A DNA stretch of 64,000 bases from a virus. Position 1 is the stretch's first letter. Every line of letters begins with the position of its first letter. The stretch is from IMG/VR virus record IMGVR_UViG_3300032236_001129, positions 1 through 64,000 of that record; one strand, given 5' to 3'. Below, piece after piece: positions 17,992 through 32,128 of the stretch. The position numbers and the translations under genes are program-made. The notes under the pieces are model-generated. The model did not search any database, was not told the origin of the DNA, and saw only the letters and a program-made list of their open reading frames with translations.

Positions 17992-18088
17992 TGCGCTCTG
18001 CTCCTCCTACTCTACTAGGTCTAGTCCCCTAGTGGGGTAGAGGGAGCAGGGCGAGTGACCCTGTTCTCTCTCCCTTAGGAGGGGAGAA
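17992..18088 (+). promoter_or_regulatory. Structured leader of the first plus-strand island gene
   Basis: Long G-U-rich hairpin 17992-18053, then TTCTCTCTCC-CTTA-GGAGGGGAGAA hairpin occluding the RBS. Confidence 0.5.
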
Positions 18089-18090
18089 TT

Positions 18091-18660: not shown

Positions 18661-18689
18661 TTACTAGGTGAGCGCATCACGCAAGTAGG

Positions 18690-19120
18690 AGCAGGGGGGG
18701 CTACGGCTCTCCCTGCCTCTATCTATGTCCATAGTTACTATGGGCGTAGATGGGGTGATACCTCTGCCGTAATACTCAAGTGGAAGTCGCAAGTTGAGAT
18801 GAAAGTATGTATCTGCTATCCCCCAGAGTAATCCACGCCCGTTGATTCGGTGTCCTGCTACGAATAGGCTCTCAACTCTCTATGATGGGAGTTGGGAGTC
18901 TATTCAGGCTACTGTCGCCACGCATCTATTATCATTGTGAGTACCACCAAGCCTACGGCTAGGCGGTGGGTCTGCTATCAGGTATAAGACTAGACGGCTA
19001 GTCTGCTATCAGGTATGAGGCAGGCGGGTATCAGGTAGCGGGTGGAAGAGACATAGAACCTAGCGTACTGACCTATGTGTCTATGTGGCTACTCTCTATG
19101 TCTCTCTCACTCTCTATCTA
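18690..19120 (+). other. ORF-free cluster of G-U-rich hairpins and short direct repeats
   Basis: Hairpins 18691-18716, 18721-18751, 18862-18905; GTCTGCTATCAGGTAT at 18970 and 19001, partial copies at 18812 and 19029. Confidence 0.65.
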
Positions 19121-19191
19121 CACAGAGAGCAATCGGTATCCCCGCCGATTTTCGCCCAACATAAACAATACCCACCACGAAAGGTATCTCA

Positions 19192-19311
19192 ATGAACGCA
19201 TCTATCTATTGTGCTAAGTGTAAAGACAAGCACGATATCAAAGGCGCTGAGGTTATGAACCTCGTAACCATCGGCTCCTCGTATGTATGTAAGTCCTGTA
19301 AGGCTAAGTAA
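19192..19311 (+). CDS. Zn-ribbon microprotein (39 aa, not in ORF track)
   Basis: MNASIYCAKCKDKH...VCKSCKAK; GAAAGG RBS. Confidence 0.65.
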   Translation: MNASIYCAKCKDKHDIKGAEVMNLVTIGSSYVCKSCKAK

Positions 19312-19524
19312 ATGTGTGGCTGCGAATTAGGCGTTATGTGTGCCAAGCACAAGGCTTTACTCCCCAAGGTATGCGCTGTCCCCGACTGTACCTCTACCAA
19401 ACTCGTCTACTCCGGTACTGATGCCTTTATGCTAGGCGTGCCTACCGAGGTCTATTGCTATACCTGCGCCAATATCTTCTCGTTTATTACCTCATACGAG
19501 ACACGCTACGAGATAGCCAAGTAA
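19312..19524 (+). CDS. Cys-rich hypothetical protein
   Basis: 70 aa, abuts the upstream stop codon. Confidence 0.55.
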   Translation: MCGCELGVMCAKHKALLPKVCAVPDCTSTKLVYSGTDAFMLGVPTEVYCYTCANIFSFITSYETRYEIAK

Positions 19525-19561
19525 GTTTCCCCGCCCAATCCCTCACAGAAAGGCAATACCT

Positions 19562-19858
19562 ATGTCCGAAGAACGCTTCATAGAAGAAACCGATCCGCAT
19601 ACCCACCTATGGACACCATACGAACAGGAGCGACCACACCTACTCAACTTCTGTAGTCTGTGCCTTCGCCGTACCTATGTGATGGCTGAACTCACCTACT
19701 CCAATCAAGATGGCGAGACTGTCCATAGTGATTTGCCTCTGGAGCGTGAGTTTCTCCACGATGCCCTCAATGAGTGGCTAGACAAAGGCAACAAGACCGG
19801 CTATTTCTATGTGGGTAATCTCCTCCAACTCACACGAGATATGGGTAACGATATCTAA
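19562..19858 (+). CDS. Hypothetical protein
   Basis: GAAAGG RBS; HxH..CxxC. Confidence 0.65.
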   Translation: MSEERFIEETDPHTHLWTPYEQERPHLLNFCSLCLRRTYVMAELTYSNQDGETVHSDLPLEREFLHDALNEWLDKGNKTGYFYVGNLLQLTRDMGNDI

Positions 19859-19936
19859 CCAAGTTTCCCCGCCAATTTTCTGCCGGCGAGGGCGTTCCAA
19901 CACAAACACACCCACCACCACCAAGAAAGGACAACA

Positions 19937-20065
19937 ATGGACAAAGAACTCGCTCGTGTTATTGACGAGCATCTGAACAAGCTCGAAGAGTTTTGTATTA
20001 CAACTCTTGCTGAGATTGGCACTATCCGACTACAAGTACACCTCCTTAAAAACCTCACAAAATAG
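19937..20065 (+). CDS. Small hypothetical protein (42 aa, not in ORF track)
   Basis: MDKELARVIDEHLNKLEEF...; GAAAGGA RBS. Confidence 0.6.
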   Translation: MDKELARVIDEHLNKLEEFCITTLAEIGTIRLQVHLLKNLTK

Positions 20066-20097
20066 AGTTAACTGAGATGTCTACGGCTATGTAGACA

Positions 20098-20142
20098 CGG
20101 GCGGGTTGAGAGTTAGAGGGAACTCTCCCCGCCCCTTCTTTT
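20098..20142 (+). terminator. Putative intrinsic terminator
   Basis: GGGCGGG..GAGAGTT / AACTCTC.CCCGCCC followed by CTTCTTTT. Confidence 0.55.
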
Positions 20143-20164
20143 ACCCTCAATAGAAAGGCAACAA

Positions 20165-20392
20165 ATGCAAACCCTATCAGTACAAGCAACGATGACTAAA
20201 CAGGTCATCACACAGCACGACAAGCACCTTCTATGTCTAGCCATAATCAAACAGATAATGCTGATGCAAGTGAAAGAGAGCACCTATGTTCCGCAAGTAT
20301 CCCGACAAAGACAAGACACGAGTACAGCGTATACAGGAATTGCGTCGCTCGAACGCAGCGACTTCCTTACCCAACAAAAAGCGTTGGTCTAA
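20165..20392 (+). CDS. Hypothetical protein
   Basis: GAAAGG RBS; the coding frame is uncertain (overlapping CxxH/CxxR ORF 20233..20424). Confidence 0.35.
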   Translation: MQTLSVQATMTKQVITQHDKHLLCLAIIKQIMLMQVKESTYVPQVSRQRQDTSTAYTGIASLERSDFLTQQKALV

Positions 20393-20425
20393 GCGTATGC
20401 GAAACCTTTGGAAGAAGGAGTTAGA

Positions 20426-20569
20426 GTGAGCGATTGGCTTACCGAAGGCGTTAAGACAGAAGCAGGAAAAGAATTGATTATCTATATGAATCAACACTTT
20501 GGCTCAGCAGTATGGGGAAGAGTCATTGACGGAGTAAAAGCCATAGAGAAGGAGTTAAACAATGACTGA
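20426..20569 (+). CDS. Small hypothetical protein (47 aa, not in ORF track)
   Basis: GTG start after AAGGAG; MSDWLTEGVKTEAGKELII... Confidence 0.55.
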   Translation: MSDWLTEGVKTEAGKELIIYMNQHFGSAVWGRVIDGVKAIEKELNND

Positions 20570-20822
20570 TATAACAATCGTTACAATCACAGAAGGCACA
20601 GTCCTTCAGGGTGATGGCGGTGCGTCTACCGGCGCAATCGTGCTCCAACACAAACAAGCCGACAACTATACCGATGTAATCCTCTGCGATGCCTCGGTGG
20701 GTAGCCCTTATGACCCATATGTTGTATGGACTTACAATCACGAACGAGGCACTTGCTCTCGTGGTGAGTACTTTAACAACCTTGACTATGCCAAATCAGC
20801 CTATGAGGAGCGTGAGTGGTAA
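20562..20822 (+). CDS. Hypothetical protein
   Basis: AAGGAG RBS; PYVVW..GEYF...A pattern. Confidence 0.7.
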   Translation: MTDITIVTITEGTVLQGDGGASTGAIVLQHKQADNYTDVILCDASVGSPYDPYVVWTYNHERGTCSRGEYFNNLDYAKSAYEEREW

Positions 20823-21109
20823 TGGCTAAAAAGAAGAAAATAAAATGGGATGGCCCAGAGAATAGTTTCATTGGTAAAACCGTTAACTGGACTGATGAAG
20901 ACTTTCGTAATCACGGATATATGACCGTAAATGAGTTCGTTGAGAAGTTCTCCATTGGACTCAAAGCATATCTTGTCAATAATTGGAAGAGTTTTGATCG
21001 AGACCACCTATTACATCCCGAGGACTTGACTTCCAATATGCTCTGCTATGCCGAATCTGTATACGAGGTAATTAGCATCTTTGGGGTAGGTAGTACAAAT
21101 GAGGATTAA
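20822..21109 (+). CDS. Hypothetical protein
   Basis: TAATG coupling; start MAKKKKI. Confidence 0.6.
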   Translation: MAKKKKIKWDGPENSFIGKTVNWTDEDFRNHGYMTVNEFVEKFSIGLKAYLVNNWKSFDRDHLLHPEDLTSNMLCYAESVYEVISIFGVGSTNED

Positions 21110-21329
21110 CAAAAATCTGCCTGTATATGTAGCATCCGATGAATTGCTACAAGACTTAAATGATTTAGGATACAAGTCTATTGAGTTAGAAGATTTAATA
21201 GACTTTTTAGAAGAGGATGAGTCATACATACTAGATATCTATATCGGTATGGTAATGCACGACGAGTTGGCTTTTATGAGTTCGGCTGCTAGTAGAGCAT
21301 TACAAGCGTTAGATGCTCGTCCAACATAA
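21099..21329 (+). CDS. Acidic hypothetical protein
   Basis: 76 aa; its stop codon lies inside a CAACATAAACA copy. Confidence 0.6.
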   Translation: MRINKNLPVYVASDELLQDLNDLGYKSIELEDLIDFLEEDESYILDIYIGMVMHDELAFMSSAASRALQALDARPT

Positions 21330-21344
21330 ACATTCCCCGTTCGC

Positions 21345-21804
21345 CTATACCACCAGGACACACACCAAACAATACACTCATAAGGATAAGCACGGTAGGT
21401 GGCTGCCTGTTCAGCCTAATATCCTCTGCTTGTAATTCCCCACAGTTGTTGAGCGCAGTGGCGTATAAGATAGGTTCGTAGAACTTACTCACTTACAGAA
21501 CTGTGGATAAGGTAATCCCAAAAACGAGTAAAGGTCCTTTATGTATTTCGTTTGGTGTGTGCTCTGGTTGTATAGACAACCAGTATGAGGACACACGACG
21601 AATATGGAGCCACTCGGTGCGATAGGCGCTAAGACTTCGAACGCTTTACTCTGACGAGTTCGCTATTAGATGTATTCGACCCCCTAGTTCAAGCCCTTTA
21701 CACTCTCGCAAACTTCGTGGGTTGCGAACTGTTCTGGTTGCCCATAACGTTAGATAGTGTGGTCCTTCAAACCGGCAGTATGGGGGCTGTCTAACAGCCC
21801 CCAT
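21345..21804 (+). ncRNA. Candidate large structured non-coding RNA (~460 nt)
   Basis: Long-range helices 21359-21370/21550-21561 (12 bp perfect), 21345-50/21570-75, 21440-47/21499-506, 21577-83/21734-40; terminal 11-bp hairpin 21780-21804; no credible ORF. Confidence 0.6.
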
Positions 21805-21858
21805 CTGTATTAAGATTCCCACGTCCGTGGGATGTACCTGCTAAAAGGAGGTACGGCA

Positions 21859-22062
21859 ATGGCGAAGTCCGCCTTGCATTACTGTAACAACTGTGGTCGG
21901 CGTGTCCAACCACATCAAGCCAAGTTGGAAATCAAAGTGCGTCACGGCACAGATTTCTATCACGAAACTTGGGAAGGGTGCTATGAATCCACACGTGAAA
22001 GTGGTAAGCACGTTATGACTGAGTTAGAGACAGAGTTAGTTAAGATAACTCCAATCTACTAG
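21859..22062 (+). CDS. Hypothetical Zn-binding protein
   Basis: AAGGAGG RBS; CNNC...H...C. Confidence 0.65.
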   Translation: MAKSALHYCNNCGRRVQPHQAKLEIKVRHGTDFYHETWEGCYESTRESGKHVMTELETELVKITPIY

Positions 22063-22099
22063 AGTCAGTTGGTCTGGCGAGACCTGAGGTAAAACACGA

Positions 22100-22230
22100 C
22101 TCCTGAGCAATGAGACTAAACTGCTCACCTAACATTGGTACGACACTTGTGAAGTCGGGAGCAACGAGTTGCGAAATTCTTCCTCTTCGTCTACACCAAA
22201 TGTCCTGAGTATGACAACTAAAACTGCTCA
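22100..22230 (+). ncRNA. Two copies of a small H-type pseudoknot motif
   Basis: CTC-CTGAGCAAT-GAG-ACTAAAC-TGCTCA (22100-22127) and TGTC-CTGAGTAT-GACA-ACTAAAAC-TGCTCA (22201-22230) with compensatory changes. Confidence 0.65.
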
Positions 22231-22232
22231 CC

Positions 22233-22373
22233 GAGTAGGCGCTACCGTCCAATAGAGAAATCCCGAACCGCCAACAATCCCAAAGTATGATTTATTTCAG
22301 AAAGTGGAGGAGCGTACCGGCTGCCGTAAGGTAAGCGGTCAGAGAGTACCAAGGGACATTGGGGCGCCTACTC
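22233..22373 (+). ncRNA. Candidate structured RNA (~140 nt)
   Basis: Perfect 10-bp closing stem GAGTAGGCGC/GCGCCTACTC, inner CCAAT/ATTGG and TCCC/GGGA, GTAA-capped hairpin. Confidence 0.5.
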
Positions 22374-22393
22374 TCCATCTAGAAAGGATAGTA

Positions 22394-22567
22394 ATGATAA
22401 CCCTCATTAAAAGAAACACCACCGAGAAACTTCTATTCCTCTTAGAAGCACAGCTGTTTCACGGCTGCACTCGCAAAGAAGCATTGATGCTATGGAATGA
22501 TGGCATCGATACGCTGTACGACAGCGTCTCAACACAAACAATCCACACCGGAAGGATGGACAAGTAA
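22394..22567 (+). CDS. Hypothetical protein
   Basis: GAAAGGA RBS; start MITLIKRN. Confidence 0.55.
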   Translation: MITLIKRNTTEKLLFLLEAQLFHGCTRKEALMLWNDGIDTLYDSVSTQTIHTGRMDK

Positions 22568-22855
22568 ATGGCAAAAGGAAAAGGCGGAGCAAAAAGCGGT
22601 GGTCGCAACGACAATCGCCCTAATGGCAAGGCATTCAAAAAGGATCCCGGCCCTGCTCAAACACCAAAGACCAACTTCACACATATCAACGGACGCAGTC
22701 CTGAAAACAATGCTAAGCGTGAAGCGTGGAAAGCAAAAGGTGGTCGTTGGAACCACAAATCAATCCCTCATTGGAAGACTGGCAAAGTGTATGTTCCTAC
22801 AGCACTCACACCAGCCTTTGACCCTGAGAAGTTAGAGGCAGCCATTAATGGCTGA
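22568..22855 (+). CDS. Basic G/K-rich hypothetical protein
   Basis: 95 aa; coupled to neighbours. Confidence 0.65.
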   Translation: MAKGKGGAKSGGRNDNRPNGKAFKKDPGPAQTPKTNFTHINGRSPENNAKREAWKAKGGRWNHKSIPHWKTGKVYVPTALTPAFDPEKLEAAING

Positions 22856-23153
22856 GGTTCTCAAAGTCTATTCTCTTGACTATTTAAAAGAGAAACATTA
22901 TTCCGATGACACAACCGAGGATGCCACTCGTCTAGAGTGTGCTGGTCTTGTTATCGGTATGCTCGATCGTTTAGCAAAAAGCAAGCGCTTGCACCTTACC
23001 GAAGATGAGCTTCAGAGTTTGAAAAGCGCATTAGTTTATGCAACGATTGGGCAAACGCCAGTTGGCGATGCCTATATGAATGACACACTCATTGTGGTAG
23101 ACAGCCAAGAAAATGAATACGTTGCAGGAATCCCTGTAACTAACCCAGTATAA
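22848..23153 (+). CDS. Hypothetical protein
   Basis: 101 aa; overlapping start/stop. Confidence 0.65.
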   Translation: MAEVLKVYSLDYLKEKHYSDDTTEDATRLECAGLVIGMLDRLAKSKRLHLTEDELQSLKSALVYATIGQTPVGDAYMNDTLIVVDSQENEYVAGIPVTNPV

Positions 23154-23165
23154 GGAGGGCCAGCG

Positions 23166-23621
23166 ATGGCTACAACATCAACCACATCGTTAACATTCAA
23201 GCGCTCAGTTATCTTAAAGAAACTAGAGACTCGTGTTAATGAAATGAAGAAAGAGATAGACGCATGGGTAAAAGAAAACGACTCTCTATCTGATAGACAA
23301 AAAGCGTGGGACAAAAAAGCCCGTGCTTGGTTTAAAAAGAATGCAGCGTCATTGATTAATGACAATACATCCGTATACCATAACAGCCATTACCACAATA
23401 ACAATAGTTTCCGTTTTACTGTGGAAGCTAGCCCAGATAAAGTAATTGCTGCTATCGGTGAGTATCCAGAGCAAGATTGTCGTCCTGCTTGGGACCGTGC
23501 TGAGTATCGTGGTGTAAGCCCTATTGAAGAACTAGAAGCTAACATCGCTGCATTCAAAGCCGCAGAGGAAGATGAGATTAAGGTCTCAATCAAGAACAAT
23601 ATCTTCCGCTATATTAAGTAA
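23166..23621 (+). CDS. Hypothetical protein
   Basis: 151 aa; AAGGAGG RBS. Confidence 0.75.
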   Translation: MATTSTTSLTFKRSVILKKLETRVNEMKKEIDAWVKENDSLSDRQKAWDKKARAWFKKNAASLINDNTSVYHNSHYHNNNSFRFTVEASPDKVIAAIGEYPEQDCRPAWDRAEYRGVSPIEELEANIAAFKAAEEDEIKVSIKNNIFRYIK

Positions 23622-23638
23622 CCAACACAAACAAACCC

Positions 23639-23665
23639 GGCCCCGTCAATCGGCGGGGCCTTTCT
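23639..23665 (+). terminator. Putative intrinsic terminator directly after a 12-mer copy
   Basis: GGCCCCGTC-AATC-GGCGGGGCC-TTTCT. Confidence 0.55.
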
Positions 23666-23680
23666 CATAAGGAGGGCAGT

Positions 23681-24010
23681 ATGCGCAAGCTGCTGTTACG
23701 TACTAAAAAGGTGGCTGAACAAATCAATCGCCTTATGTTTGAGGAATATCAAGATAACCAATTCGAAGAAAGTCAAACTATGCGCTCATATAGCGCAGGT
23801 ATCATTGACGGCCTTGCATTGGCTTTAACTGTGATATCAGACACACCGGAGAAACTAGCTCCTTCATTCCCTCTAAGCATCTCGTTCTATGAGGAGGATG
23901 ATGAGTCTTGTACCATCGCTGCTAAGCAAGCACGTGTAGAAGCTATGCGTGAAAAGGTATTTGACTTACAGAATCAACAGAAGTTATCATTATTCTATGA
24001 GGAGGTGTAA
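23681..24010 (+). CDS. Hypothetical protein
   Basis: AAGGAGG RBS. Confidence 0.7.
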   Translation: MRKLLLRTKKVAEQINRLMFEEYQDNQFEESQTMRSYSAGIIDGLALALTVISDTPEKLAPSFPLSISFYEEDDESCTIAAKQARVEAMREKVFDLQNQQKLSLFYEEV

Positions 24011-24012
24011 CT

Positions 24013-24747
24013 ATGGCTGTTGACTGGCAATGGGCTAATGACTTCTTATCTAGAGGTCGTAAAAAGTATGAACGCCCCTTGTATGACCGAGGTCTTCGCA
24101 TTTGGAAAGAAAACAAATGGGATCCCGATAGCAATATCCACGTAGGTTGGAAGTATGGTGGCAGTGGCAATGCATTTGTTATCTATCACAAAGATGGCAC
24201 TACAACTATTCAAGGCCATCAACAACCTACTCATTGGGGTGGCAGTTGGCTTCCATTGCGTAGCTATTCTGTTCGCTTTACTATCCAACGCTATGCCGGT
24301 ATTCAGGTATCACAACGCAATTGGCAATATCATCTTACAGAAGATGATGCCCCGCTTACTCCACCAAAGATACAAGGTTGTAGAACTTGTAGACAAACTG
24401 GAAAAGTAGATGCTTGGTGTAACAGTCACAATTGTTACGATGGCGAAAAGGGTCCAGATGGCAAGATGCATTGTGAAACACATCCTGACGCACAGTTTCT
24501 AGGTGTTCAGTATCAATATCGTTGGCACGCATTACCTTGTGAGCATGGAAATCTTGATGGTCATATGGTGCCTAAAGCACAGACTTGCTATAGCTGTGGG
24601 GGCAATAAGAAGCGTGACTATGGCAGCAAGTATCAAACCACAATCTGGGATGGTTCCCCACTCAGACTGCGGGATGGAAAGATAATCAAATCAGCAGCAT
24701 CACTACTAGAAAGGATGGTGGCAGACTATGTCGACCCTGTCGGCTAA
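24013..24747 (+). CDS. Cys/His-rich hypothetical protein (DnaJ-type CxxCxxxG Zn motifs)
   Basis: GCRTCRQTG ... TCYSCGGN. Confidence 0.7.
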   Translation: MAVDWQWANDFLSRGRKKYERPLYDRGLRIWKENKWDPDSNIHVGWKYGGSGNAFVIYHKDGTTTIQGHQQPTHWGGSWLPLRSYSVRFTIQRYAGIQVSQRNWQYHLTEDDAPLTPPKIQGCRTCRQTGKVDAWCNSHNCYDGEKGPDGKMHCETHPDAQFLGVQYQYRWHALPCEHGNLDGHMVPKAQTCYSCGGNKKRDYGSKYQTTIWDGSPLRLRDGKIIKSAASLLERMVADYVDPVG

Positions 24748-25222
24748 GTATGACCCACAAGCAGTACCAGTAAATGAATCAGGTAATATGACAGAAATCA
24801 ATCAGATTGTATTGTATGTAGGCTCCGGCTTACTACCACAGAATCTATTGCGTATGTCAACACAAACATCGGCTCTTCGTGATGCCTTTGTAGCCAACAT
24901 CGCCAGAACCAGTATGGTTGAGGGCGCACTCGCTACGTTCCTTGGCAAGCTCGTTACAATTGAAAATGTAATGACTGCTGAAGAAATTGCAGTATGTGAA
25001 TATGCCGCAACTTTGGCGTATATGACAAACAACATTGATCTCGTTAAAGAGATTCTGATGCGTGTACCACCTAAATCAGTTAACAGCTATCTTCAAACGT
25101 TATACACAGCTGTTGCAGTTCGTAAATGGTCATCAGAAATATTCAATGATGCGCTTGCTGAAGCTTCTACTCAGTCTCTCTATCGATGGGAAGCTGAGAA
25201 AGCTAACGTTATCAACATCTAG
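24728..25222 (+). CDS. Hypothetical helical protein
   Basis: 164 aa overlapping the upstream gene. Confidence 0.65.
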   Translation: MSTLSAKYDPQAVPVNESGNMTEINQIVLYVGSGLLPQNLLRMSTQTSALRDAFVANIARTSMVEGALATFLGKLVTIENVMTAEEIAVCEYAATLAYMTNNIDLVKEILMRVPPKSVNSYLQTLYTAVAVRKWSSEIFNDALAEASTQSLYRWEAEKANVINI

Positions 25223-25248
25223 TTTTGATAGTCCATATGGCTATCAAA

Positions 25249-25420
25249 TGGAATGGGTTGGCTAAGCCTACCGCTGGTTAGACTGGCGTGATGCAAGAGA
25301 ACGAGTACGAAGCGAACAGCGGCACAGTTGCGTGTAACAACCGGTGCTGGTCTGCCTTCTAAAGTATGAGCTAGATCAAATAGTCCCTGCGAGGCATTGG
25401 GGGCAAGCCAATCCAATCCA
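25249..25420 (+). ncRNA. Candidate multibranched structured RNA (~170 nt)
   Basis: Closing stem TGGGTTGGCT/AGCCAATCCA (25254-63/25406-15), inner CCGCTG/CAGCGG and further hairpins; preceded by hairpin 25224-25248. Confidence 0.5.
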
Positions 25421-25438
25421 ATAAAGAAAGGAAACATC

Positions 25439-25699
25439 ATGTGCCACGAATGTGGAGATGAAGAAGATGACATTCAGTTTAGTTCTGAGTTCATCGATGC
25501 TTTACAAGAACTACCTCCTGAAGAAAAGGAAAACGTTCTAGATGATATGCAAGAGTCCATCGCATATGTGATGGAGAAAGCAGAACAGCAAGGGTTCTTG
25601 TTCGAGTTGATTACATCTTGGCCAAGAACAAAGGTTGCTATGTATGAGGCAGCCGTAGTCATGGAGAAAAATATTCTCGATGATGGACACACACACTAG
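25439..25699 (+). CDS. Acidic hypothetical protein
   Basis: GAAAGGA RBS; start MCHECG. Confidence 0.65.
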   Translation: MCHECGDEEDDIQFSSEFIDALQELPPEEKENVLDDMQESIAYVMEKAEQQGFLFELITSWPRTKVAMYEAAVVMEKNILDDGHTH

Positions 25700-25710
25700 A
25701 AAGGCACAAC

Positions 25711-27120
25711 ATGGAGATAGCAGTATTTACCGAGTCTTACGAACCAGGTATGGGTGCAAAGCGACGTCAAATCCTTATGGCACCATATGAGGGAGGCGTA
25801 AAAATCTGGTCACGGTTAACCGATGGAACTAAGGGCCCACACAATAAGTGGGAAGATACTTCATTGGCTGAGCTAAGTGACTTGGTTAGTAGCTCAGAGC
25901 AATTGACAAGGACCCCTGTTGGTGTATATGTTACGGCAGCAGATGAGAAGGCAATTGCAGACAAGGGTTACTCTCCTGTCTTAGGTACCAAGGCATGCAA
26001 TCAACATGCTAAGGCTGACCCAAATACAGATACAACTCCGTTCGCAGAAAAGCTCTGTGAACTCCACGATCAAATCCTAGTGGGGGATGATTCATTGGAT
26101 ACATATGTAATCGATAACCGACGTCAAGCTGGCGCTACAGTTCCATTGGTAATGCCAGTCTCAACACAAACAAACGAGGATGCTATGCCAACTGTTAAGC
26201 AATCTTCTGGTGGCAAAATTCTCAGCGTCAATCTTGCAACAGTTCCACGCAAGGAGCTAGCTGAGCGATATGTTCACCGTAAGATCTGGGGTCAAGAAGA
26301 CTTTGCAGTCTATGACCACGCACGTGCTAAAGGTACTAACATTCTTATCTATGGCCCAACTGGTCCTGGTAAGACTACATCTGTTGAAGCGTGGGCTGCT
26401 GAACGTGGCTTGCGCCTAGCAACAATCTCTGGTAATGCGTCTATGGAACCAAGCCAAATGACCGGCAAGTTCGTCTCTGATGGCGAAGGTGCGTTCATGT
26501 GGATTGACGGTCCCGTAACTGACGTAGTACGTAACGGTGGTGTTCTTCTGCTTGATGAGGTTAACTTCATCAATCCTAAGATCTATACCAACCTATATTC
26601 ATTGACCGATGGTCGTCGTAGCATTACTTTGCTTGACCATCATGGCGAGACTATTGAGGCTCACAAAGACCTCACTATCTTCGCTACTATGAATCCAGAT
26701 TACATCGGCACCACACCGCTCAACTTTGCGTTCCGCAATCGCTTCGACATTCAAATCCCATGGGATTATGACGATGCCGTTGAGGAGAAGTTGATTAGTT
26801 CTAAGGCTCTTCGTATCCTTATGAAGCAACTTCGCACAGAGGCTGCCAAGGGTCAATACGAGACTCCAATCTCTACCAACATGGGTATGGAGTTCATCGA
26901 CCTTATCGACTCTCTCGGCTATGAGTTTGCAGCCGAGAACTTCATTGCTCACTTCAGTACAGATGAGCAAGCCAGCGTACGCATGGTCTTCCAGACTCAT
27001 GAGCACAATGTCAAGTCTGACTTCGGTCTCGAAGCCAACATAAACATTGACCAACCTGCTGATAAGAGTCTTGATGATCGCCTGCAAGAATGGGCACAAC
27101 AAGTATCCGTTAACGTCTAA
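25711..27120 (+). CDS. MoxR/CbbQ/NirQ-like AAA+ ATPase with N-terminal extension
   Basis: Walker A GPTGPGKT, Walker B LLLDEVN, ATMNP, AFRNRF. Confidence 0.9.
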   Translation: MEIAVFTESYEPGMGAKRRQILMAPYEGGVKIWSRLTDGTKGPHNKWEDTSLAELSDLVSSSEQLTRTPVGVYVTAADEKAIADKGYSPVLGTKACNQHAKADPNTDTTPFAEKLCELHDQILVGDDSLDTYVIDNRRQAGATVPLVMPVSTQTNEDAMPTVKQSSGGKILSVNLATVPRKELAERYVHRKIWGQEDFAVYDHARAKGTNILIYGPTGPGKTTSVEAWAAERGLRLATISGNASMEPSQMTGKFVSDGEGAFMWIDGPVTDVVRNGGVLLLDEVNFINPKIYTNLYSLTDGRRSITLLDHHGETIEAHKDLTIFATMNPDYIGTTPLNFAFRNRFDIQIPWDYDDAVEEKLISSKALRILMKQLRTEAAKGQYETPISTNMGMEFIDLIDSLGYEFAAENFIAHFSTDEQASVRMVFQTHEHNVKSDFGLEANINIDQPADKSLDDRLQEWAQQVSVNV

Positions 27121-27129
27121 GGAGGCTAA

Positions 27130-29016
27130 ATGCTTATAGATGAATTAGATGATTCTCCGTGGGGTGGAGATGCTCGTTCTGAGCAAGACCAAGAGCGCAT
27201 AGTTCAACTAGGTGCTTTATGTCGTGTGTATGAACAAGCTGACCGAGTTCTCACTGGTGACCCAGTCATAGTCAACGTCATGCCAGATGGCCCTGCGCCA
27301 GCGTGGTCTGACGGCGCTGCTATCTATATCAATCAGCAAGAAATTACTGATATGGATTTAGAAACGCTAACTCAAGTCACCGGCCTGAACTATCATGAGC
27401 TAGCCCATCACTTCTATACTCCTCGCAAGGGTACAGAGCTAATCAAGTGGGTACTAGCCAACAACTATATGGAATCCGCCAATATGCTCGAGGACCAGCG
27501 CATCGAGACTTTGCTATGCGCTCGTTATCCAGCTGTTGCTCCATATCTCACAGGTACAGTAGCTAGATGGCTTGGTGAGACTCCTGAGGAACGACAGGGT
27601 GTGTATGCTCTCATCCGTGGTCGCAGGTATCTGCCAGTAGAACTACGTGAAGCATATCGTGATGAGTTTGCATTCCCGGAACTCATACCTGCTATCGTAG
27701 ACATCGTAGACAAGTATCGTCTGCTTGCATTCCCACGGGACTACAAGACAGCACAAGTACTTATCCAACGATTCAATGACGAAGTACTCAAACCAATCCG
27801 TGGTGACTTTCCACAGCTATCTGGTGGTCCCAATGGATGTGGTCATCGTGATCCAACAATCAAGGGTCGTCCTGAACCTGGCAAGATGCAAGAGAGAGAT
27901 GCTCAGCGTGCCGGCAATATGGGCAAGCCAGAGTCTGTCTATATGCCAATTCCTAAAGCCAAGGATGATGCCAACACAAACAGCACGCCAGACAAAAGCA
28001 ATCCATCTACAATGCCTGCTCCTAACAGTGCAGCGGAAGCGCTTGCTATACGTGAGGCGATTCAACAATCTAATCAACCACCATCTCTAGAACCAGGCGA
28101 AGGCCATCATGAGAGCAAGGGTGGTGTTCCTGATAATCTCCAGAGTATCTTGGATAACACTATGGAGGATATCTACAACAACAAAGCAGTTCAACAGGAT
28201 ATCAAAGCCAAGCAGCGTGTAATCGTTGGTGGCGATGGTAAGTTCGATGCGTCTACTAAACATGGCAAATTCGACCTCACCGATGTCCCTACTGACACCA
28301 TCATCATGTATCGTGCGTTTGCCAAAGAGTTGGAGCGCCTGCGTGATGAGTGTGAGCCTGGCTGGAACAAGGGTGTACCTAGCGGTAAGCTCAACGTTCA
28401 GCGTGTAATCAATGGATGTGAGATCGACGAAGCCTTTGACCGCTGGGAAGAAGGTAATGATGGCGCCGACGTGGAAGCCGTTATTCTAGTAGATCGTTCC
28501 GGATCCATGGGCTCTGACAACAATGACCGCAATGCTTCTCTTGCATGCTGGACTATCAAGCGTGCGTTGGAAGCCATCGATGCTCCAGTTACCGTGTATG
28601 CATTCGATGACAGGTCAGAGGTTGCGTATACCCGCTCCGAGCGTGCCCACAAAACACGCTTCAAATTTATCTATGGCAGCGGTGGTACAAATCCGTATAG
28701 CTCGTTAATCGCAGCCGAGCAGCTGCTTATGTCTTCTCGTAAGAAGAATAAGATGCTGTTTATCATCACCGATGGTGCCTTCAATCATGAGAAAAATGAT
28801 GAAGTCATCCAACGTATTAGCCGTCGAGGTATCTTGACTGCTATGACTCTTATCATGCGTGATAGAGACTATGAGTACTACAGCAATCGTGGCGAGAGCG
28901 ATAAGACTTTCCGACACGATGCTGAAGTATATGGCCGTATCAATTCAGCCCGTGACTTAGTGCCGTTTGCTAAGGCTGTAGTAATGGGTGCAATCAAGAA
29001 GCGCAGAAGCGCCTAA
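27130..29016 (+). CDS. VWA domain protein (CobT-like, N-terminal HExxH)
   Basis: HELAH..NMLEDQRIE; MIDAS DRSGSM, GGT, IITDG. Confidence 0.9.
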   Translation: MLIDELDDSPWGGDARSEQDQERIVQLGALCRVYEQADRVLTGDPVIVNVMPDGPAPAWSDGAAIYINQQEITDMDLETLTQVTGLNYHELAHHFYTPRKGTELIKWVLANNYMESANMLEDQRIETLLCARYPAVAPYLTGTVARWLGETPEERQGVYALIRGRRYLPVELREAYRDEFAFPELIPAIVDIVDKYRLLAFPRDYKTAQVLIQRFNDEVLKPIRGDFPQLSGGPNGCGHRDPTIKGRPEPGKMQERDAQRAGNMGKPESVYMPIPKAKDDANTNSTPDKSNPSTMPAPNSAAEALAIREAIQQSNQPPSLEPGEGHHESKGGVPDNLQSILDNTMEDIYNNKAVQQDIKAKQRVIVGGDGKFDASTKHGKFDLTDVPTDTIIMYRAFAKELERLRDECEPGWNKGVPSGKLNVQRVINGCEIDEAFDRWEEGNDGADVEAVILVDRSGSMGSDNNDRNASLACWTIKRALEAIDAPVTVYAFDDRSEVAYTRSERAHKTRFKFIYGSGGTNPYSSLIAAEQLLMSSRKKNKMLFIITDGAFNHEKNDEVIQRISRRGILTAMTLIMRDRDYEYYSNRGESDKTFRHDAEVYGRINSARDLVPFAKAVVMGAIKKRRSA

Positions 29017-29038
29017 CCAACACAAACAAGGAGGGTAT

Positions 29039-29230
29039 ATGTACACGATTTATGACAGCATCACGGAGTCTTTAGTTGAAGTCTTTAATGACTATGAGTC
29101 CGCACAAATGTTCCTACTACATCAGTCAGATAACCTAGCCGATGGTGGGGCTAATCTGTCTATTGAATACATTTCTACAGTACAAGAGTGGGCTATGGAT
29201 AATGGCATCAAATTGGAGGCGGTAATGTAA
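29039..29230 (+). CDS. Hypothetical protein
   Basis: AAGGAGG RBS immediately after a 12-mer copy; start MYTIYD. Confidence 0.65.
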   Translation: MYTIYDSITESLVEVFNDYESAQMFLLHQSDNLADGGANLSIEYISTVQEWAMDNGIKLEAVM

Positions 29231-29550
29231 TGGGAGAAGTTATTAACTTCGGAGACTATCTAGCAGCAAAGCAAGCCAACATGACAGTCGGTCAGCTACG
29301 TGGCTCAAGAGAGTTGATGGATGAGCTTCTATCCGAGCTAACTCCTGAGCAACTAGCTAGTGACTATATTCTCTATGTGCCAGAGTCTGTGGACGATGTC
29401 TGGCCTAGAGAGTATCTCTATATCATGCCTGAAGATCTTGGCAATCCCGGCTGTAGTGAGTGCCAGCATCTTAACTGGGAGGTTGTAGAGGATGGCTATC
29501 AAGCCAGATGCAAAGACTGCAAACTAAACGCTTGGAGTGCACCATGGTAA
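29230..29550 (+). CDS. Hypothetical protein with C-terminal Zn ribbon
   Basis: CSEC...CKDC. Confidence 0.6.
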   Translation: MGEVINFGDYLAAKQANMTVGQLRGSRELMDELLSELTPEQLASDYILYVPESVDDVWPREYLYIMPEDLGNPGCSECQHLNWEVVEDGYQARCKDCKLNAWSAPW

Positions 29551-29993
29551 ATACATTTCTACCTTGGCCAGACATGAAACGAACAGCTAAATCCTTAGAC
29601 AACAAGAGACTTGGTAAGCAACGTGTAGAGGCGTTGCAAATTCTGAGGGCCAACTTGGGTCTAACTAAGGGATGGGTTAATCACCCGGCTGCTGTGATGT
29701 GGCGTGGTCACGAAGGTTATCTATATATGTACACAAATGCTATGTGTATAGAGTGGAGACAACGTGGCTATGAAGATAACGTACAAGCACGGCTGCAAGA
29801 GCTGTATGCAGAACATGACATACAAGGTTGGGACCCGCCATGGTGGTGGGGTAATGATGAGTTCCATTCATCACATCGTTCTAACCTAAAGCGTAAAGAT
29901 CCGATTTGGTATCGGTTTCGTGTACGCAAAGATATTCCGTACAAATGGCCTACACCTAGTATGTCATTCAGAACAACAGAAGGAAAAAAATAA
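29544..29993 (+). CDS. Pyrimidine dimer DNA glycosylase / endonuclease V family (MSMEG_6728-like)
   Basis: TFLP..LDNKRLGKQRVEALQI..HPAAVMWRG..H.SHRSNLKRKDP. Confidence 0.9.
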   Translation: MVNTFLPWPDMKRTAKSLDNKRLGKQRVEALQILRANLGLTKGWVNHPAAVMWRGHEGYLYMYTNAMCIEWRQRGYEDNVQARLQELYAEHDIQGWDPPWWWGNDEFHSSHRSNLKRKDPIWYRFRVRKDIPYKWPTPSMSFRTTEGKK

Positions 29994-30190
29994 TGACCAT
30001 GTACAAAGTAACAATCCATGAACACAAGATCTACGATGCGTTCATTGAAGCACCAACACAGCAGCTGGCTATTGAAGAAGCTGAGAACCAAATTGTTGGT
30101 GAAGAAAATGCCAAGTGGCGTGAAGATTACAACGCTGGTTGGGCTGAAGTTGGCGAGGTTGAACTAGTAGAAGAGGAAGACTATGCCTAA
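29993..30190 (+). CDS. Acidic hypothetical protein
   Basis: 65 aa; TAATG coupling. Confidence 0.6.
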   Translation: MTMYKVTIHEHKIYDAFIEAPTQQLAIEEAENQIVGEENAKWREDYNAGWAEVGEVELVEEEDYA

Positions 30191-30716
30191 TTGGTGTGAC
30201 AACGCCATAATGATAAGAGGACAGAAAGATGAAGTACTCAAAGTAAAAGACTTTGTTACTGATGGTAACAATCCGTTTAGCTTTGAGAAAATCTATCCGT
30301 GTCCTCCTAAGTTAAGAAGTGAAAGCGCACCTAATAGAAACACACAAAGCTCTGAATTCAACACCAGTAAGTACGGGGCTAAAGATTGGTATGAATGGTG
30401 TGTTGATAACTGGGGTACTAAATGGGACTCATCTGAAACAGAGTTACTAACAGAACTGTTAGATGAAGACACATTACAAATAACCTGGAGCTACCAAACA
30501 GCTTGGGCTCCTCCCATCGGGGTATATGAGAAGCTGGCGGAGATGTTTCCCAACATAAACATTTTCGTTAACTTCGATGAATCCGGGATGGGATTCTCTG
30601 GTTGGAAATACTACAAGGATGGAGCTGTAGAGAAAGAAGAAGATTACGGCTCTTCCTACTACAGTATCAAGACCTTTATGGAACCAGATACTGATATATG
30701 GGATTGGTTAGATTAG
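30183..30716 (+). CDS. DUF1281/YubB ferredoxin-like fold protein
   Basis: MPNWC.N, DWYEWCVDNWGTKWD, TAWAPP. Confidence 0.85.
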   Translation: MPNWCDNAIMIRGQKDEVLKVKDFVTDGNNPFSFEKIYPCPPKLRSESAPNRNTQSSEFNTSKYGAKDWYEWCVDNWGTKWDSSETELLTELLDEDTLQITWSYQTAWAPPIGVYEKLAEMFPNINIFVNFDESGMGFSGWKYYKDGAVEKEEDYGSSYYSIKTFMEPDTDIWDWLD

Positions 30717-30728
30717 AAATGGAGGATC

Positions 30729-30938
30729 ATGGCCAATGACAAGTTAACTACAAAACTACGAATACTCTATGAGGTAGATATTGCCAAGTGGCGTATTGAT
30801 GATCAAAACGAAATCGAGAACCGTGAGTGGTGTCTTTATGTGTATGACCGTAACCAAGAGCAATGGGTTGCAGTCAGTAGCTTAAACGCACCAGGCGAGG
30901 GAGCTTCGATTAGACATATTCACGTAGTAGAAGAGTAA
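30729..30938 (+). CDS. Hypothetical protein
   Basis: GGAGG RBS. Confidence 0.55.
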   Translation: MANDKLTTKLRILYEVDIAKWRIDDQNEIENREWCLYVYDRNQEQWVAVSSLNAPGEGASIRHIHVVEE

Positions 30939-31038
30939 CCCCGGGCGCAATCCGGGGTACTCGGCTAAATGGTGCAAACTCTGTCGTACTTAGAGCTAGC
31001 ATTAACAAGTATACCCTAGACACTAGAAAGGAGATCCA

Positions 31039-31278
31039 GTGTTTGAATTCGCTAACATGCGATTAAAAGATAAAAACATAAAGAAACTGGTCTCTGCTCT
31101 AGAGGAAGCCGGTCTGGACGTCTCAATGACGCCAGGCAAGCATCACATTAAGGTGGTCAATAGTGACACTAAACAGGTGGTATTCTTTGGACCTCAGTCC
31201 TTAGGAGACTTTAGAGCGGGGAAAAATATACTCAGAGACCTCAAGAAGGTGGGCTTTGAGTCAAACATCAAACTATAG
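31039..31278 (+). CDS. HicA-like (dsRBD-fold) protein
   Basis: LVSALEEAGLDV..GKHHIKV...KNILRDLKKVG pattern. Confidence 0.55.
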   Translation: MFEFANMRLKDKNIKKLVSALEEAGLDVSMTPGKHHIKVVNSDTKQVVFFGPQSLGDFRAGKNILRDLKKVGFESNIKL

Positions 31279-31286
31279 GAGGAAGC

Positions 31287-31565
31287 ATGGCTAAGAAAGT
31301 AGATGCTACATTCAGTGTAGAAATCTGTAAGAACACGGAAAAAGGTGGTGCGTGGTTAGCTACATACACCATTACAGAAGATGGTGTGGAGAAGGGCTAT
31401 GTCAATGAAGCATGGTCTAACGCATCAGCTGCTAAACGATGGATTAAGTCCAAGGTTGTAGAACATACGCCACGTAAGTCCATCAAGCTTGAGATCACAA
31501 CCAAGGACTTAAATGACAAACCAACATGTATCAAGGGTCAACTAACATATAAAGTGGAGGCATAA
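31287..31565 (+). CDS. Hypothetical protein
   Basis: AGGAGG RBS; AWSNASAAKRW. Confidence 0.7.
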   Translation: MAKKVDATFSVEICKNTEKGGAWLATYTITEDGVEKGYVNEAWSNASAAKRWIKSKVVEHTPRKSIKLEITTKDLNDKPTCIKGQLTYKVEA

Positions 31566-31789
31566 TGAACGTCAACATGGAAACTGCAGAGAAGGTTGCT
31601 GAACTAGGCAACATGACTATGGATATAGCTGAAACACTATCTGATCTACTCGGTGACGACGAGCTTGATTATATGATGCTGTTAGACGCTCTTGCTATAC
31701 ATGGCTACACCATTGAGAAGGCCAAGGGTGAGAATATAGCCAGCATAGCCTACATGTACGGCCTCTCATTAGAAGCACAGGATGCATAA
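31565..31789 (+). CDS. Hypothetical protein
   Basis: Coupled ORF. Confidence 0.6.
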   Translation: MNVNMETAEKVAELGNMTMDIAETLSDLLGDDELDYMMLLDALAIHGYTIEKAKGENIASIAYMYGLSLEAQDA

Positions 31790-32065
31790 ATGGATATGGA
31801 GACAATACTTCCCCGGACATGTGTAGTGTGTCATGGCCGGGGTTACATCTTCCAAGGTAACTCGGAAGACTGGGACGTTACAGCATGTGATGCATGTGAT
31901 GATGAAGCGGGAGCTAACTATCTCCTAGCTGCTGACGCATACGACGAAATCGAGATGAAGATGGAAGAAAATGATGAGGAGCTTACCAAATGCCAGGGTT
32001 GTGGTGAGCCGTCTATGCTTGATGAGTTAGACCTAGATCTGCTCTGCGACTATTGCGCTGAGTAA
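31790..32065 (+). CDS. Double Zn-ribbon protein
   Basis: CVVCHGRG..CDAC; CQGC..CDYC. Confidence 0.6.
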   Translation: MDMETILPRTCVVCHGRGYIFQGNSEDWDVTACDACDDEAGANYLLAADAYDEIEMKMEENDEELTKCQGCGEPSMLDELDLDLLCDYCAE

Positions 32066-32073
32066 TCTCACAG

Positions 32074-32113
32074 AAAAAGCCCCCCGGCCTTAATTGGTCG
32101 AGGGGCTTTTTTT
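32074..32113. terminator. Bidirectional terminator at the right border of the plus-strand island
   Basis: AAAAAGCCCC...GGGGCTTTTTTT between convergent genes. Confidence 0.8.
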
Positions 32114-32128
32114 GTTTGTGTTGGCCGT

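What the first reader, a model, noticed from the sequence alone, without database searches (positions are those of the whole stretch)
19156..32124. Oriented, quasi-periodic 12-mer YCAACAYAAACA marks the whole plus-strand island: candidate undescribed region-wide control system
Seen: CAACA(C/T)AAACA, always preceded by a pyrimidine, occurs at 19157, 19898, 20646, 21322, 22530, 23623, 24858, 26162, 27036, 27972, 29018 and 30551 on +, with spacings of 676-1533 nt. One inverted copy lies at 32113-32123, exactly at the island's right border, where it is sense to the convergent nrdJ transcript. I saw no copy in the other ~50 kb (manual scan). Uniform-composition expectation is about 0.06 copies per window. 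Seven copies lie inside ORFs and use all three frames (LQHKQ at 20646; STQT at 22530, 24858, 26162; ANIN/ANTN/PNIN at 27036, 27972, 30551), often in linkers, so selection acts on the nucleic acid, not the protein. The others sit in 5' leaders (19157, 19898), on or just after stop codons (21322, 23623, 29018, 32113) and directly before terminators (23623, 32113). Established analogy: mycobacteriophage L5 stoperators are asymmetric repressor sites oriented with transcription, but they mostly lie at gene boundaries. Inference: this is a polar site system that silences, anti-terminates or processes the early transcript, or guides stepwise DNA entry or protection. Candidate readers in the window are the first island gene (18091), the RHH (58652), the MerR-like HTH (57441) and the BldC-like protein (42226).
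Basis: partly seen in the sequence, partly recalled or inferred. Interest (0 to 1): 0.92.

Follow-up and report, generated by a model that had tools for sequence, protein, structure and literature searches.

The report
Oriented 12-base word in phage early operon
A 100-kb uncultured phage of actinobacteria writes one exact 12-letter word about every 1,000 bases along the sense strand of its early-gene block, its relatives keep the word while the genes around it change, and what reads it is still unknown.

Summary
YCAACAYAAACA occurs 12 times on + (19156-30561) and once on - (32113-32124). There is no one-mismatch copy in the window and no other copy in the 100,206-bp genome; about 0.01 copies are expected by chance.

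It is under selection. Seventeen related viral loci carry the same word in the same layout: several sense copies, plus one reverse copy just before the terminator of the converging nrdJ operon. Spacing is regular (CV 0.2-0.3). One in-gene copy is kept letter-perfect in at least 14 relatives while neighbouring codons drift. More distant relatives use sister words (CCGACACAAACA, CCAACCCAAACA, CCAAGGCAAACA).

It is specific to this phage family. It is not enriched in 401 actinobacterial genomes, and unrelated viral contigs show only single, chance-level hits.

I found no phage RNA polymerase, integrase or L5-type repressor.

My best reading (0.4) is a signal read on the transcript or sense strand by a phage-specific factor that controls early RNA segment by segment. 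The main rival (0.3) is a stoperator-like polar DNA roadblock. A conserved 92-aa basic early protein (31287-31565) is the leading candidate reader, but it is unproven.

The scan had already noted this word in a related genome (e1-5997159).

The parts
19156..19167 (+). word copy 1 (CCAACATAAACA), intergenic, just after a weak hairpin, 25 nt before an SD-led ATG at 19192
19897..19908 (+). word copy 2, intergenic, after a C-rich/G-rich hairpin, 29 nt before the ATG at 19937
20645..20656 (+). word copy 3, inside ORF 20562-20822; the position is not kept in most relatives
21321..21332 (+). word copy 4, overlaps the TAA stop of ORF 21099-21329; followed by a ~460-nt ORF-free stretch; a co-occurring strain diverges at 21339
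22529..22540 (+). word copy 5, at the end of ORF 22304-22567, 27 nt before the ATG at 22568
23622..23633 (+). word copy 6, directly after the stop of 23166-23621 and 5 nt before terminator hairpin 23639-23660
24857..24868 (+). word copy 7, inside ORF 24728-25222
26161..26172 (+). word copy 8, inside the MoxR-type AAA+ gene (25711-27120), read as (P/S)TQT; kept letter-perfect in at least 14 relatives while flanking codons vary
27035..27046 (+). word copy 9, near the 3' end of the AAA+ gene; present at this place in only one relative locus (L027)
27971..27982 (+). word copy 10, inside the VWA gene (27130-29016), in a low-complexity linker
29017..29028 (+). word copy 11, directly after the VWA stop and directly before the SD AGGAGGG and the ATG at 29039
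30550..30561 (+). word copy 12, inside ORF 30183-30716
32113..32124 (-). the single reverse copy, sense to the converging nrdJ operon: 4 nt after the stop of a 51-aa acidic ORF and 6 nt before the terminator
32074..32112 (.). A-run, GC hairpin and T-run: a two-way intrinsic terminator between the island and the nrdJ operon. On the + strand the complement of the word extends the U-rich tail.
31287..31565 (+). 92-aa basic early protein 'B' (beta3-alpha-beta2, no known family); leading but unproven candidate reader
31039..31278 (+). 79-aa HicA-like protein (GKHH motif; Pfam HicA_toxin E 0.0014, below the cut-off); possible RNA-cleaving partner, not universal in the family
17762..32065 (+). the plus-strand early island. 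The left third is hypervariable and its gene order is shuffled among relatives. The core is the AAA+ and VWA genes, a DenV-like gene and small conserved ORFs.

Best explanation
The word is the cis-acting half of a control system specific to this phage family's hyperplastic early operon. It is read in the sense orientation, most simply on the nascent or finished transcript (or on the displaced sense DNA strand), by a sequence-specific factor encoded by the phage family. I favour control of the long early RNA in segments. One site per ~1 kb, placed at gene junctions where possible and otherwise written through tolerant protein linkers, would let a binding or cutting protein process, release or destroy every part of the early message together. 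This is the logic of T4 RegB (my own knowledge), but with a 12-nt address that only this phage's RNA carries. A copy just 5' of a terminator hairpin would couple the same factor to the 3' end of the nrdJ operon RNA.

Shown: the word exists, is exact, is restricted to the island, always lies on the sense strand, is regularly spaced, is selected at the nucleotide level, is family-specific, and often sits beside RNA-type hairpins.

For: (1) Every copy is sense to its local transcript: the 12 island copies and the reverse copy, most extra copies in relatives (two exceptions are listed under evidence against) and the five cassettes of L224.
(2) The word contains only A and C (or T), and is about 74% unpaired in its RNA context, against 35% for its complement.
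(3) Where it meets a terminator it lies on the transcribed side, 1-7 nt 5' of the stem: 14 reverse copies, copy 23622 and G006 61564.
(4) In L224 each word sits directly 3' of a CUCUCU/GGGAGGG hairpin, about 75-105 nt downstream of a TAGAGT -10-like box.
(5) In L239 and L220 the sister word CCAACCCAAACA pairs with its complement as the closing 12 bp of long hairpins. The inner stems differ between copies but stay complementary, and a terminator follows. That indicates selection on a folded single strand.
(6) Variation within the W-type relatives (L011-L027) is by transitions only (Y1, Y7, R3), and the two Y positions are never both T (0 of 138).
(7) Even spacing with copies forced into long genes fits a need for one site per length of RNA.
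(8) 24% of copies start 0-5 nt after a stop codon and 42% have an SD-led start 10-45 nt downstream.
(10) Protein B is present in 18 of 21 loci with at least 3 words, including distant L224. It is diverged where the word is the C-variant and undetected where the word is CCAAGGCAAACA.
(11) A HicA-like (mRNA-interferase family) gene lies next to B in most relatives.
Against: There are no RNA data, so no RNA ends, cuts or footprints are shown.

Native flanks do not make the word significantly more accessible than shuffled flanks (0.74 vs 0.72, P 0.07).

In L239 and L220 the word is base-paired. A single-strand reader could not use it there, whereas a duplex-DNA reader could use both layouts.

Two extra copies (G005 84338 and G006 85631) lie on the strand opposite the main gene direction: G006 85631 is antisense inside a + ORF, and the local gene strand at G005 84338 was not settled.

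L022 has six words but no B. G006, L021, L024 and L224 lack the HicA-like gene. So neither candidate is universal, and the link between B and the word is confounded by shared ancestry and synteny.

B has no significant structural match. Its best hints (AP2/GCC-box type, Z 4.3) would point to duplex DNA.

An exact, asymmetric, transcription-oriented site has a proven DNA-level precedent in L5 stoperators.
Confidence: 0.4

Rival explanations
1. Stoperator-like polar roadblock. A phage protein binds the duplex 12-bp word as a monomer and stops RNA polymerase moving in the sense direction. This shuts off the early operon after the early phase, and the reverse copy backs up the terminator that keeps nrdJ-operon transcription out of the island.
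For: The site is asymmetric, 12 bp, near-exact and always oriented with transcription. Those are the defining properties of L5-type sites, where reversing the site abolishes repression (PMC9283540; PMC6550527). The word prefers gene junctions. It is family-specific and sister words occur in diverged lineages, as for Cluster A subclusters. A duplex reader would work both for solo words and for the inverted pairs of L239/L220. B has a weak AP2-like resemblance.
Against: Sites are confined to one 13-kb operon rather than spread over the genome. No integrase, partition genes or L5-type repressor were found. A roadblock does not explain even spacing with copies forced into long genes, the A/C-only composition, or the covarying hairpins. 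No copy overlaps a recognisable promoter.
Confidence: 0.3
2. Recombination or cassette-shuffling signal, as in the PeSL elements of T4-type phages. The shared word gives microhomology at which early genes are swapped between co-infecting relatives, and any regulatory role is secondary.
For: The island is hyperplastic. Its left third has few homologues, and gene order differs among relatives (for example the homologue of 23166-23621 sits elsewhere in L013, L018 and L019). Several homology blocks begin or end at 23621/23622. A co-occurring strain diverges 7 nt after copy 21321. L224 has promoter-hairpin-word cassettes. PeSLs are described as junction elements that mediate such shuffling (PMC4122927).
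Against: Twelve bases is very short for homologous exchange. The copy inside the AAA+ gene is conserved in a non-mobile core gene. Even spacing, strict exactness and the conserved reverse copy at a terminator are not expected from a by-product of recombination. W-type words have no promoter or stem-loop of their own.
Confidence: 0.1
3. A DNA-level mark on one strand: a site-specific nick (as in T5, phiKMV or LUZ24-type phages, from my own knowledge) or a site-specific base exchange by the neighbouring TGT/DpdA-like enzyme. The complementary strand, TGTTTRTGTTGR, carries TGT twice.
For: Exact site-type specificity with no near-miss copies. A TGT-family gene lies 2.2 kb away and is conserved in the family, including G006. 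The 3' half of the word (its complement is TGTTTG) is invariant in all sister words.
Against: Nothing explains why a nick or modification should be confined to the early operon, follow transcription sense in other places, or sit beside terminators. The only run found is held as contigs, which cannot show nicks or modified bases.
Confidence: 0.07
4. Promoter for a phage-specific transcription machinery (T7-like logic or sigma appropriation).
For: Exact, one-directional, about 1 kb apart, some copies inside genes, and often 10-45 nt before an SD-led start, as for T7-type promoters (my own knowledge).
Against: No phage RNA polymerase was found by PHROGs or Pfam on the large proteins, or by a DxDGD scan. 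The largest unknown protein (8185-11676) is not conserved in G006. No -10-like box is enriched downstream. Several copies fire straight into a terminator 1-7 nt away. In L224 the promoter-like box lies upstream of the word, not in it.
Confidence: 0.05
5. A host-defined polar word borrowed by the phage (Chi-, KOPS- or uptake-sequence-like), for example to stop a host exonuclease entering at a genome end.
For: The complement is GT-rich like known Chi sites (my own knowledge). The copies form a one-directional array, and sister words occur in lineages that may have other hosts.
Against: In 401 Actinomycetota genomes the word occurs 0-6 times per genome, no more than its backwards-read control. 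Unrelated viral contigs do not use it. The true host is unknown, so this is not absolute.
Confidence: 0.03

Closest known systems
Stoperators of Cluster A mycobacteriophages (L5 gp71, TipsytheTRex repressor; PMC9283540, PMC6550527)
   Same: A short (12-14 bp) asymmetric site in many near-identical copies, oriented with transcription, mostly at gene junctions, with lineage-specific sister sequences, in phages of Actinobacteria.
   Different: Stoperators number 20-30 and are spread over the whole genome of temperate phages with a known HTH repressor. Here 13 copies are confined to one early operon of an apparently virulent 100-kb myovirus. Copies are written through long genes to keep spacing even. 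The word is A/C-only and sits beside RNA hairpins. No such repressor was found.
Start-associated sequences (SAS/ESAS) of Cluster K mycobacteriophages (PMC3203893)
   Same: A 13-bp asymmetric word of unknown reader, restricted to the non-structural part of the genome, in one orientation with a single copy on the other strand in several phages, conserved across subclusters next to unrelated genes, and absent from host genomes.
   Different: SAS contain the Shine-Dalgarno core and sit 3-7 bp before start codons. This word has no SD, is 10-45 nt or more from starts, and half the copies lie inside genes.
PeSL promoter-early stem-loop cassettes of T4-type hyperplastic regions (PMC2839356, PMC4122927)
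   Same: Repeated oriented junction elements in a hypervariable early-gene region whose genes are shuffled among relatives. The L224 lineage has promoter-like box, hairpin and word cassettes.
   Different: PeSLs are composite promoter/terminator sequences. The W-type word is a bare 12-mer without promoter boxes or its own hairpin, and it also occurs inside conserved genes.
T4 RegB sites (GGAG in early mRNA junctions; my own knowledge, not tested here)
   Same: The proposed logic is the same: an early phage product acts at a short sequence repeated through early transcripts, mainly at gene junctions, to time early mRNA decay.
   Different: RegB reads 4 nt with host S1 help and has no homologue detected here. 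The 12-nt address, even spacing and in-gene copies would be new.

Membership tests
Cluster A stoperator system | asymmetric 13-14 bp site bound without dyad symmetry | tested here: met
   12-nt non-palindromic word with unconserved flanks
Cluster A stoperator system | [quoted passage not shown] | tested here: met
   12 copies on the island sense strand and 1 on the nrdJ-operon sense strand
Cluster A stoperator system | 20-30 sites distributed through the whole genome | tested here: not met
   All 13 copies lie within 19156-32124 of a 100,206-bp genome; relatives have 0-2 extra copies
Cluster A stoperator system | L5 gp71-type repressor (N-terminal HTH plus stoperator domain) encoded by the phage | tested here: inconclusive
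   No such family by Pfam, PHROGs or PDB sequence search; a 185-aa MerR-like protein exists but is unlinked to the word
Cluster A stoperator system | temperate lifestyle (integrase or parABS) | tested here: inconclusive
   No integrase, resolvase or ParA/B among the ORFs of at least 200 aa or the small non-structural ORFs that were scanned; six mid-sized ORFs and the small ORFs of the structural region were not scanned
SAS/ESAS of Cluster K | word lies 3-7 bp upstream of the start codon and contains the SD core | tested here: not met
   The shortest distance to an SD-led start is 10 nt, and only 15% of copies lie within 15 nt; half are inside ORFs; the word has no G
SAS/ESAS of Cluster K | one orientation, non-structural region only, absent from host genomes | tested here: met
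PeSL cassettes | composite early promoter plus stem-loop | tested here: not met
   No -10 enrichment and no general hairpin next to W-type copies; only the L224 lineage shows a -10-like box, hairpin and word
PeSL cassettes | located at junctions of swappable genes in a hyperplastic region | tested here: met
   Hypervariable, re-ordered island genes; blocks ending at 23621/23622; strain break at 21339
Host polar words (Chi, KOPS, uptake sequences) | strong over-representation in the host chromosome | tested here: not met
   0-6 copies per genome in 401 Actinomycetota genomes, equal to the control. The true host is unknown. Two of the 401 genomes (G012, G059) are unpublished; the claim does not depend on them.
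T7-type phage promoters | phage-encoded RNA polymerase that reads them | tested here: not met
Site-specific nicks (T5/phiKMV/LUZ24 type) | single-strand interruptions in virion DNA at the word | not testable with these tools
   Only assembled contigs of the source sample are available

The most novel reading that the evidence does not exclude
The word works by pairing with its own complement. In the L239/L220 lineages the word and anti-word close long hairpins in cis. In this phage the only anti-word on the island's sense strand lies at the very 3' end of the early transcription unit, just past the last hairpin, where it could pair with any of the 12 upstream words. A small protein of a new fold (B) would read that duplex or the free word. 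This would be a programmable, nucleic-acid-addressed switch for a whole hyperplastic operon, a kind of control not described in phages.
Probability: 0.12. Interest if true: 0.85.

Novelty: new variant of a known kind. Interest (0 to 1): 0.62.

Why it matters
Early regions of large uncultured phages are mostly unknown genes that turn over quickly. Here a letter-perfect signal outlasts those genes. It is kept at about 1-kb spacing even when that means writing it through conserved proteins, and it changes in step with lineage. That points to a dedicated cis/trans control system for early expression in a widespread family of likely actinobacterial phages recovered largely from lake metagenomes. 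It would also show whether the dispersed oriented words seen in many actinophages (stoperators, SAS and this one) share a principle or are independent inventions. The sister words and the hairpin-embedded form provide natural specificity controls for experiments.

Tried and rejected
- **Phage collection.** No near-identical DNA in the INPHARED phage collection.
- **Literature.** The literal word turned up no relevant paper among the 20 of 153 string matches listed (primer-type matches only).
- **Rfam.** Only tRNA-Asn at 17085-17157 was found.
- **First island gene as reader.** Rejected: no homologue in any relative.
- **Phage RNA polymerase.** None found.
- **Downstream promoter boxes.** TANNNT is not enriched after the word.
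- **General hairpin association of forward copies.** None.
- **Antisense guide elsewhere in the genome.** The only complement on a sense strand is the reverse copy itself. Taking that copy as the guide conflicts with L017 and L021, where its third base differs from the forward copies.
- **NusA/BoxC or rrn-leader mimicry.** The leader and spacer of one small actinobacterial rRNA operon have no word-like sequence.
- **Inversion between forward and reverse copies (shufflon-like).** No such joints in the source-sample contigs, although contigs drop rare forms.
- **RNA runs.** No RNA holder is listed for this stretch, so expression and RNA ends could not be examined.
- **Host assignment by nrdJ.** The first genome scan found nothing. 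The second gave about 59% identity to Georgenia and Actinotalea, plus MAG contigs that may be mis-binned phage. The host remains unknown.
- **HicA-like protein as universal reader.** Rejected: absent from G006, L021, L024 and L224.
- **Fold of protein B.** No PDB match above background (Foldseek E at least 0.04; VIA Z at most 6.1). A profile search of PDB sequences found nothing.
- **TCTAAAGAAG in other nrdJ-bearing phage groups.** It looked like a parallel word, but it is low in complexity and occurs on both strands, so I do not count it.

Full report
**1. The observation**

YCAACAYAAACA occurs 12 times on the + strand between 19156 and 30561 and once on the - strand at 32113-32124. Dinucleotide shuffles expect 0.01 copies. 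The 11-mer core has no one-mismatch variant anywhere in the 64-kb window, although chance alone would give about three. The window is the first 64 kb of a 100,206-bp virus record, and the other 36 kb has no copy. Flanking bases are not conserved, apart from a weak preference for A or T after the word. Gaps between copies are 676-1563 nt. Their regularity (CV 0.25) was never reached in 5,000 random placements. Seven copies lie in ORFs, in all three frames, against 0.83 expected when synonymous codons are shuffled.

One detail needs correction. The reverse copy follows a 51-aa very acidic ORF downstream of nrdJ, not nrdJ itself. It sits 6 nt before a strong two-way terminator.

**2. The setting**

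The genome is a contractile-tailed phage, with baseplate wedge, portal, large terminase and major head protein genes. Almost all genes are on the - strand, except the island at about 17.8-32.1 kb and a small lysis block. Two WhiB genes and PASTA-domain proteins point to an actinobacterial host.

The island holds many small unknown ORFs, a MoxR-type AAA+ gene with a VWA partner, and a DenV-like glycosylase. I found no phage RNA polymerase, integrase or L5-type repressor.

**3. Conservation**

Eighteen viral loci encode the VWA protein at 30-86% identity. Seventeen of them carry the same word: 2-11 forward copies on the island's sense strand and, wherever the locus reaches that far, one reverse copy. 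That reverse copy always lies a few bases after a stop codon and 1-7 nt before a GC hairpin with a T-run. Five nearly complete relatives show the same island restriction, with 0-2 extra copies.

The copy inside the AAA+ gene is present in at least 14 relatives. All four of its third-codon positions are invariant, while the codon before it is seen as GTA, GTT, GTG and GTC. Other in-gene copies come and go between close relatives while spacing stays regular (CV 0.20-0.32 in eight of eleven loci). So selection keeps both the letters and the density of copies, but not their positions.

The only variation within the W-type relatives (L011-L027) is C/T at positions 1 and 7, never both T in 138 copies, and A/G at position 3 in two lineages. 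More distant family members use sister words. CCAAGGCAAACA occurs in G006, including one copy between a hairpin after the head-protein gene and the next gene's start, and one in a stop-word-terminator arrangement. CCAACCCAAACA occurs in L239 and L220.

**4. Who could read it**

A scan of the viral collection for TAA plus the word returned 80 loci. Every locus with three or more copies belongs to this family, and unrelated contigs have single hits at chance level. In 401 Actinomycetota genomes the word occurs 0-6 times per genome, no more than its backwards-read control. Two of those genomes, G012 and G059, are unpublished, and nothing here rests on them.

The first island gene has no homologue in any relative, and the left third of the island is hypervariable with shuffled gene order.

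The most widely kept small island gene is 31287-31565, a 92-aa basic protein. It is present in 18 of 21 loci with three or more words. The three loci without it are two truncated loci and L022. It is also present in distant L224, where no other island protein of this window was found in the 22-kb locus. It is diverged (25-34 bits) in the lineages with the C-variant word, and undetected in G006, which has the most different word.

Its predicted structure is confident (pLDDT 85, beta3-alpha-beta2) but matches no solved fold above background. The first 60 residues overlay AP2/GCC-box domains only weakly (Z 4.3).

Next to it lies a 79-aa HicA-like gene with a GKHH motif, but four lineages that have words lack it. 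Both are candidates, not findings. The correlation is confounded by shared ancestry and by conserved gene order next to nrdJ.

**5. Clues to the level of action**

Nearly every copy examined, in any genome, is sense to its local transcript. The exceptions are one extra copy in G006 (85631), which is antisense inside an ORF, and one in G005 (84338), which lies on the strand opposite the main gene direction and whose local gene strand I did not settle. The word is A/C-only and is predicted to be about 74% unpaired as RNA, though native flanks add little to that (P 0.07). Next to terminators it is always on the transcribed side.

In L224 each of five words follows a CUCUCU/GGGAGGG hairpin, about 75-105 nt after a TAGAGT box. 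In L239 and L220 the word and its complement form the closing 12 bp of long hairpins (-67 to -95 kcal/mol). The inner stems differ between copies yet remain complementary, and a terminator follows.

These features favour a signal that acts on a single strand, most simply the transcript. They do not exclude a duplex-DNA reader, which would cope better with the paired form.

No -10-like box follows the word. No inversion joints were seen in the source-sample contigs, and one strain contig diverges 7 nt after copy 21321. No RNA run holds the sequence.

**6. Verdict**

This is a real, conserved cis element, specific to one phage family, that marks an early operon. The best-supported reading (0.4) is a sense-strand or RNA-level address read by a phage factor to handle the early message segment by segment. 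The main rival (0.3) is a stoperator-like polar DNA roadblock. Recombination junctions (0.1), a nick or modification site (0.07), a promoter (0.05) and a host polar word (0.03) are less likely.

Measured against the known families, the system shares asymmetry and orientation with stoperators but not genome-wide spread, and no matching repressor or sign of a temperate lifestyle was found. It shares restriction and orientation with SAS but not start-codon linkage. It shares the hyperplastic setting with PeSLs but not their promoter/terminator make-up.

I re-derived that independently. This report adds the spacing statistics, the codon-level conservation, the sister words, the hairpin-embedded form, the host-genome control and two candidate proteins.

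Noticed in passing
window 31039-31278 (+) and 31287-31565 (+): A HicA-like 79-aa gene (GKHH motif, below the Pfam cut-off) is followed by a conserved 92-aa basic protein of unknown fold. The order resembles a toxin-antitoxin pair, but the second gene occurs alone in several relatives.
   Followed up: partly
window 32129-32284 (-): A 51-aa extremely acidic ORF (runs of D/E/F) with its own SD lies directly after nrdJ. It could be a DNA-mimic or anti-defence type protein. The reverse word copy follows its stop.
   Followed up: no
L239:9745-9910, 12180-12340, 13410-13570; L220:17725-17890, 21370-21520: Long perfect hairpins (-67 to -95 kcal/mol) are closed by the sister word CCAACCCAAACA and its complement. 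Their inner stems covary, and in four of the five a separate terminator-like hairpin follows. They resemble processing sites or small palindromic mobile elements.
   Followed up: partly
L224:15795-21000: Five repeated cassettes: a TAGAGT (-10-like) box, a variable leader, a CUCUCU/GGGAGGG hairpin, then the word. In this distant relative the array is on the same strand as nrdJ.
   Followed up: partly
window 21333-21830: An ORF-free stretch of about 460-500 nt lies right after word copy 4. Depth in the source sample doubles over 21036-21602, and a second strain's contig diverges at 21339.
   Followed up: partly
window 34370-35848 (-): A TGT/DpdA-like protein (PHROG queuine tRNA-ribosyltransferase, E 7e-53) is conserved across the family, including G006. 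This suggests possible 7-deazaguanine-type DNA modification. No link to the word is shown.
   Followed up: no
G010:C1:269086-270288 (Acidimicrobiaceae MAG): Two CCAACACAAACA copies lie 1.2 kb apart on one strand of a large contig. This may be a prophage-like or mis-binned relative and could hint at the host.
   Followed up: no
L046 (106-kb contig of a 'Cyclobacteriaceae' MAG) and several Lake Mendota MAG contigs: These contigs carry nrdJ at 57-74% identity to the phage gene inside MAGs of unrelated phyla. They are probably phage contigs binned by mistake.
   Followed up: no
L191:2367-4249; L209:12037-13874; L205:8220-9367: Other nrdJ-bearing phage groups carry their own one-strand repeated 10-mers (for example TGGTATGGCT x7, GCTTTTGCTA x6) just beyond nrdJ. 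Lineage-specific oriented words may be common in this wider group.
   Followed up: no
window 49986-50264 (-): A SpoVS-family protein (Pfam E 1e-25) is 69-71% identical in the most distant relatives, unusually conserved for a small phage protein.
   Followed up: no
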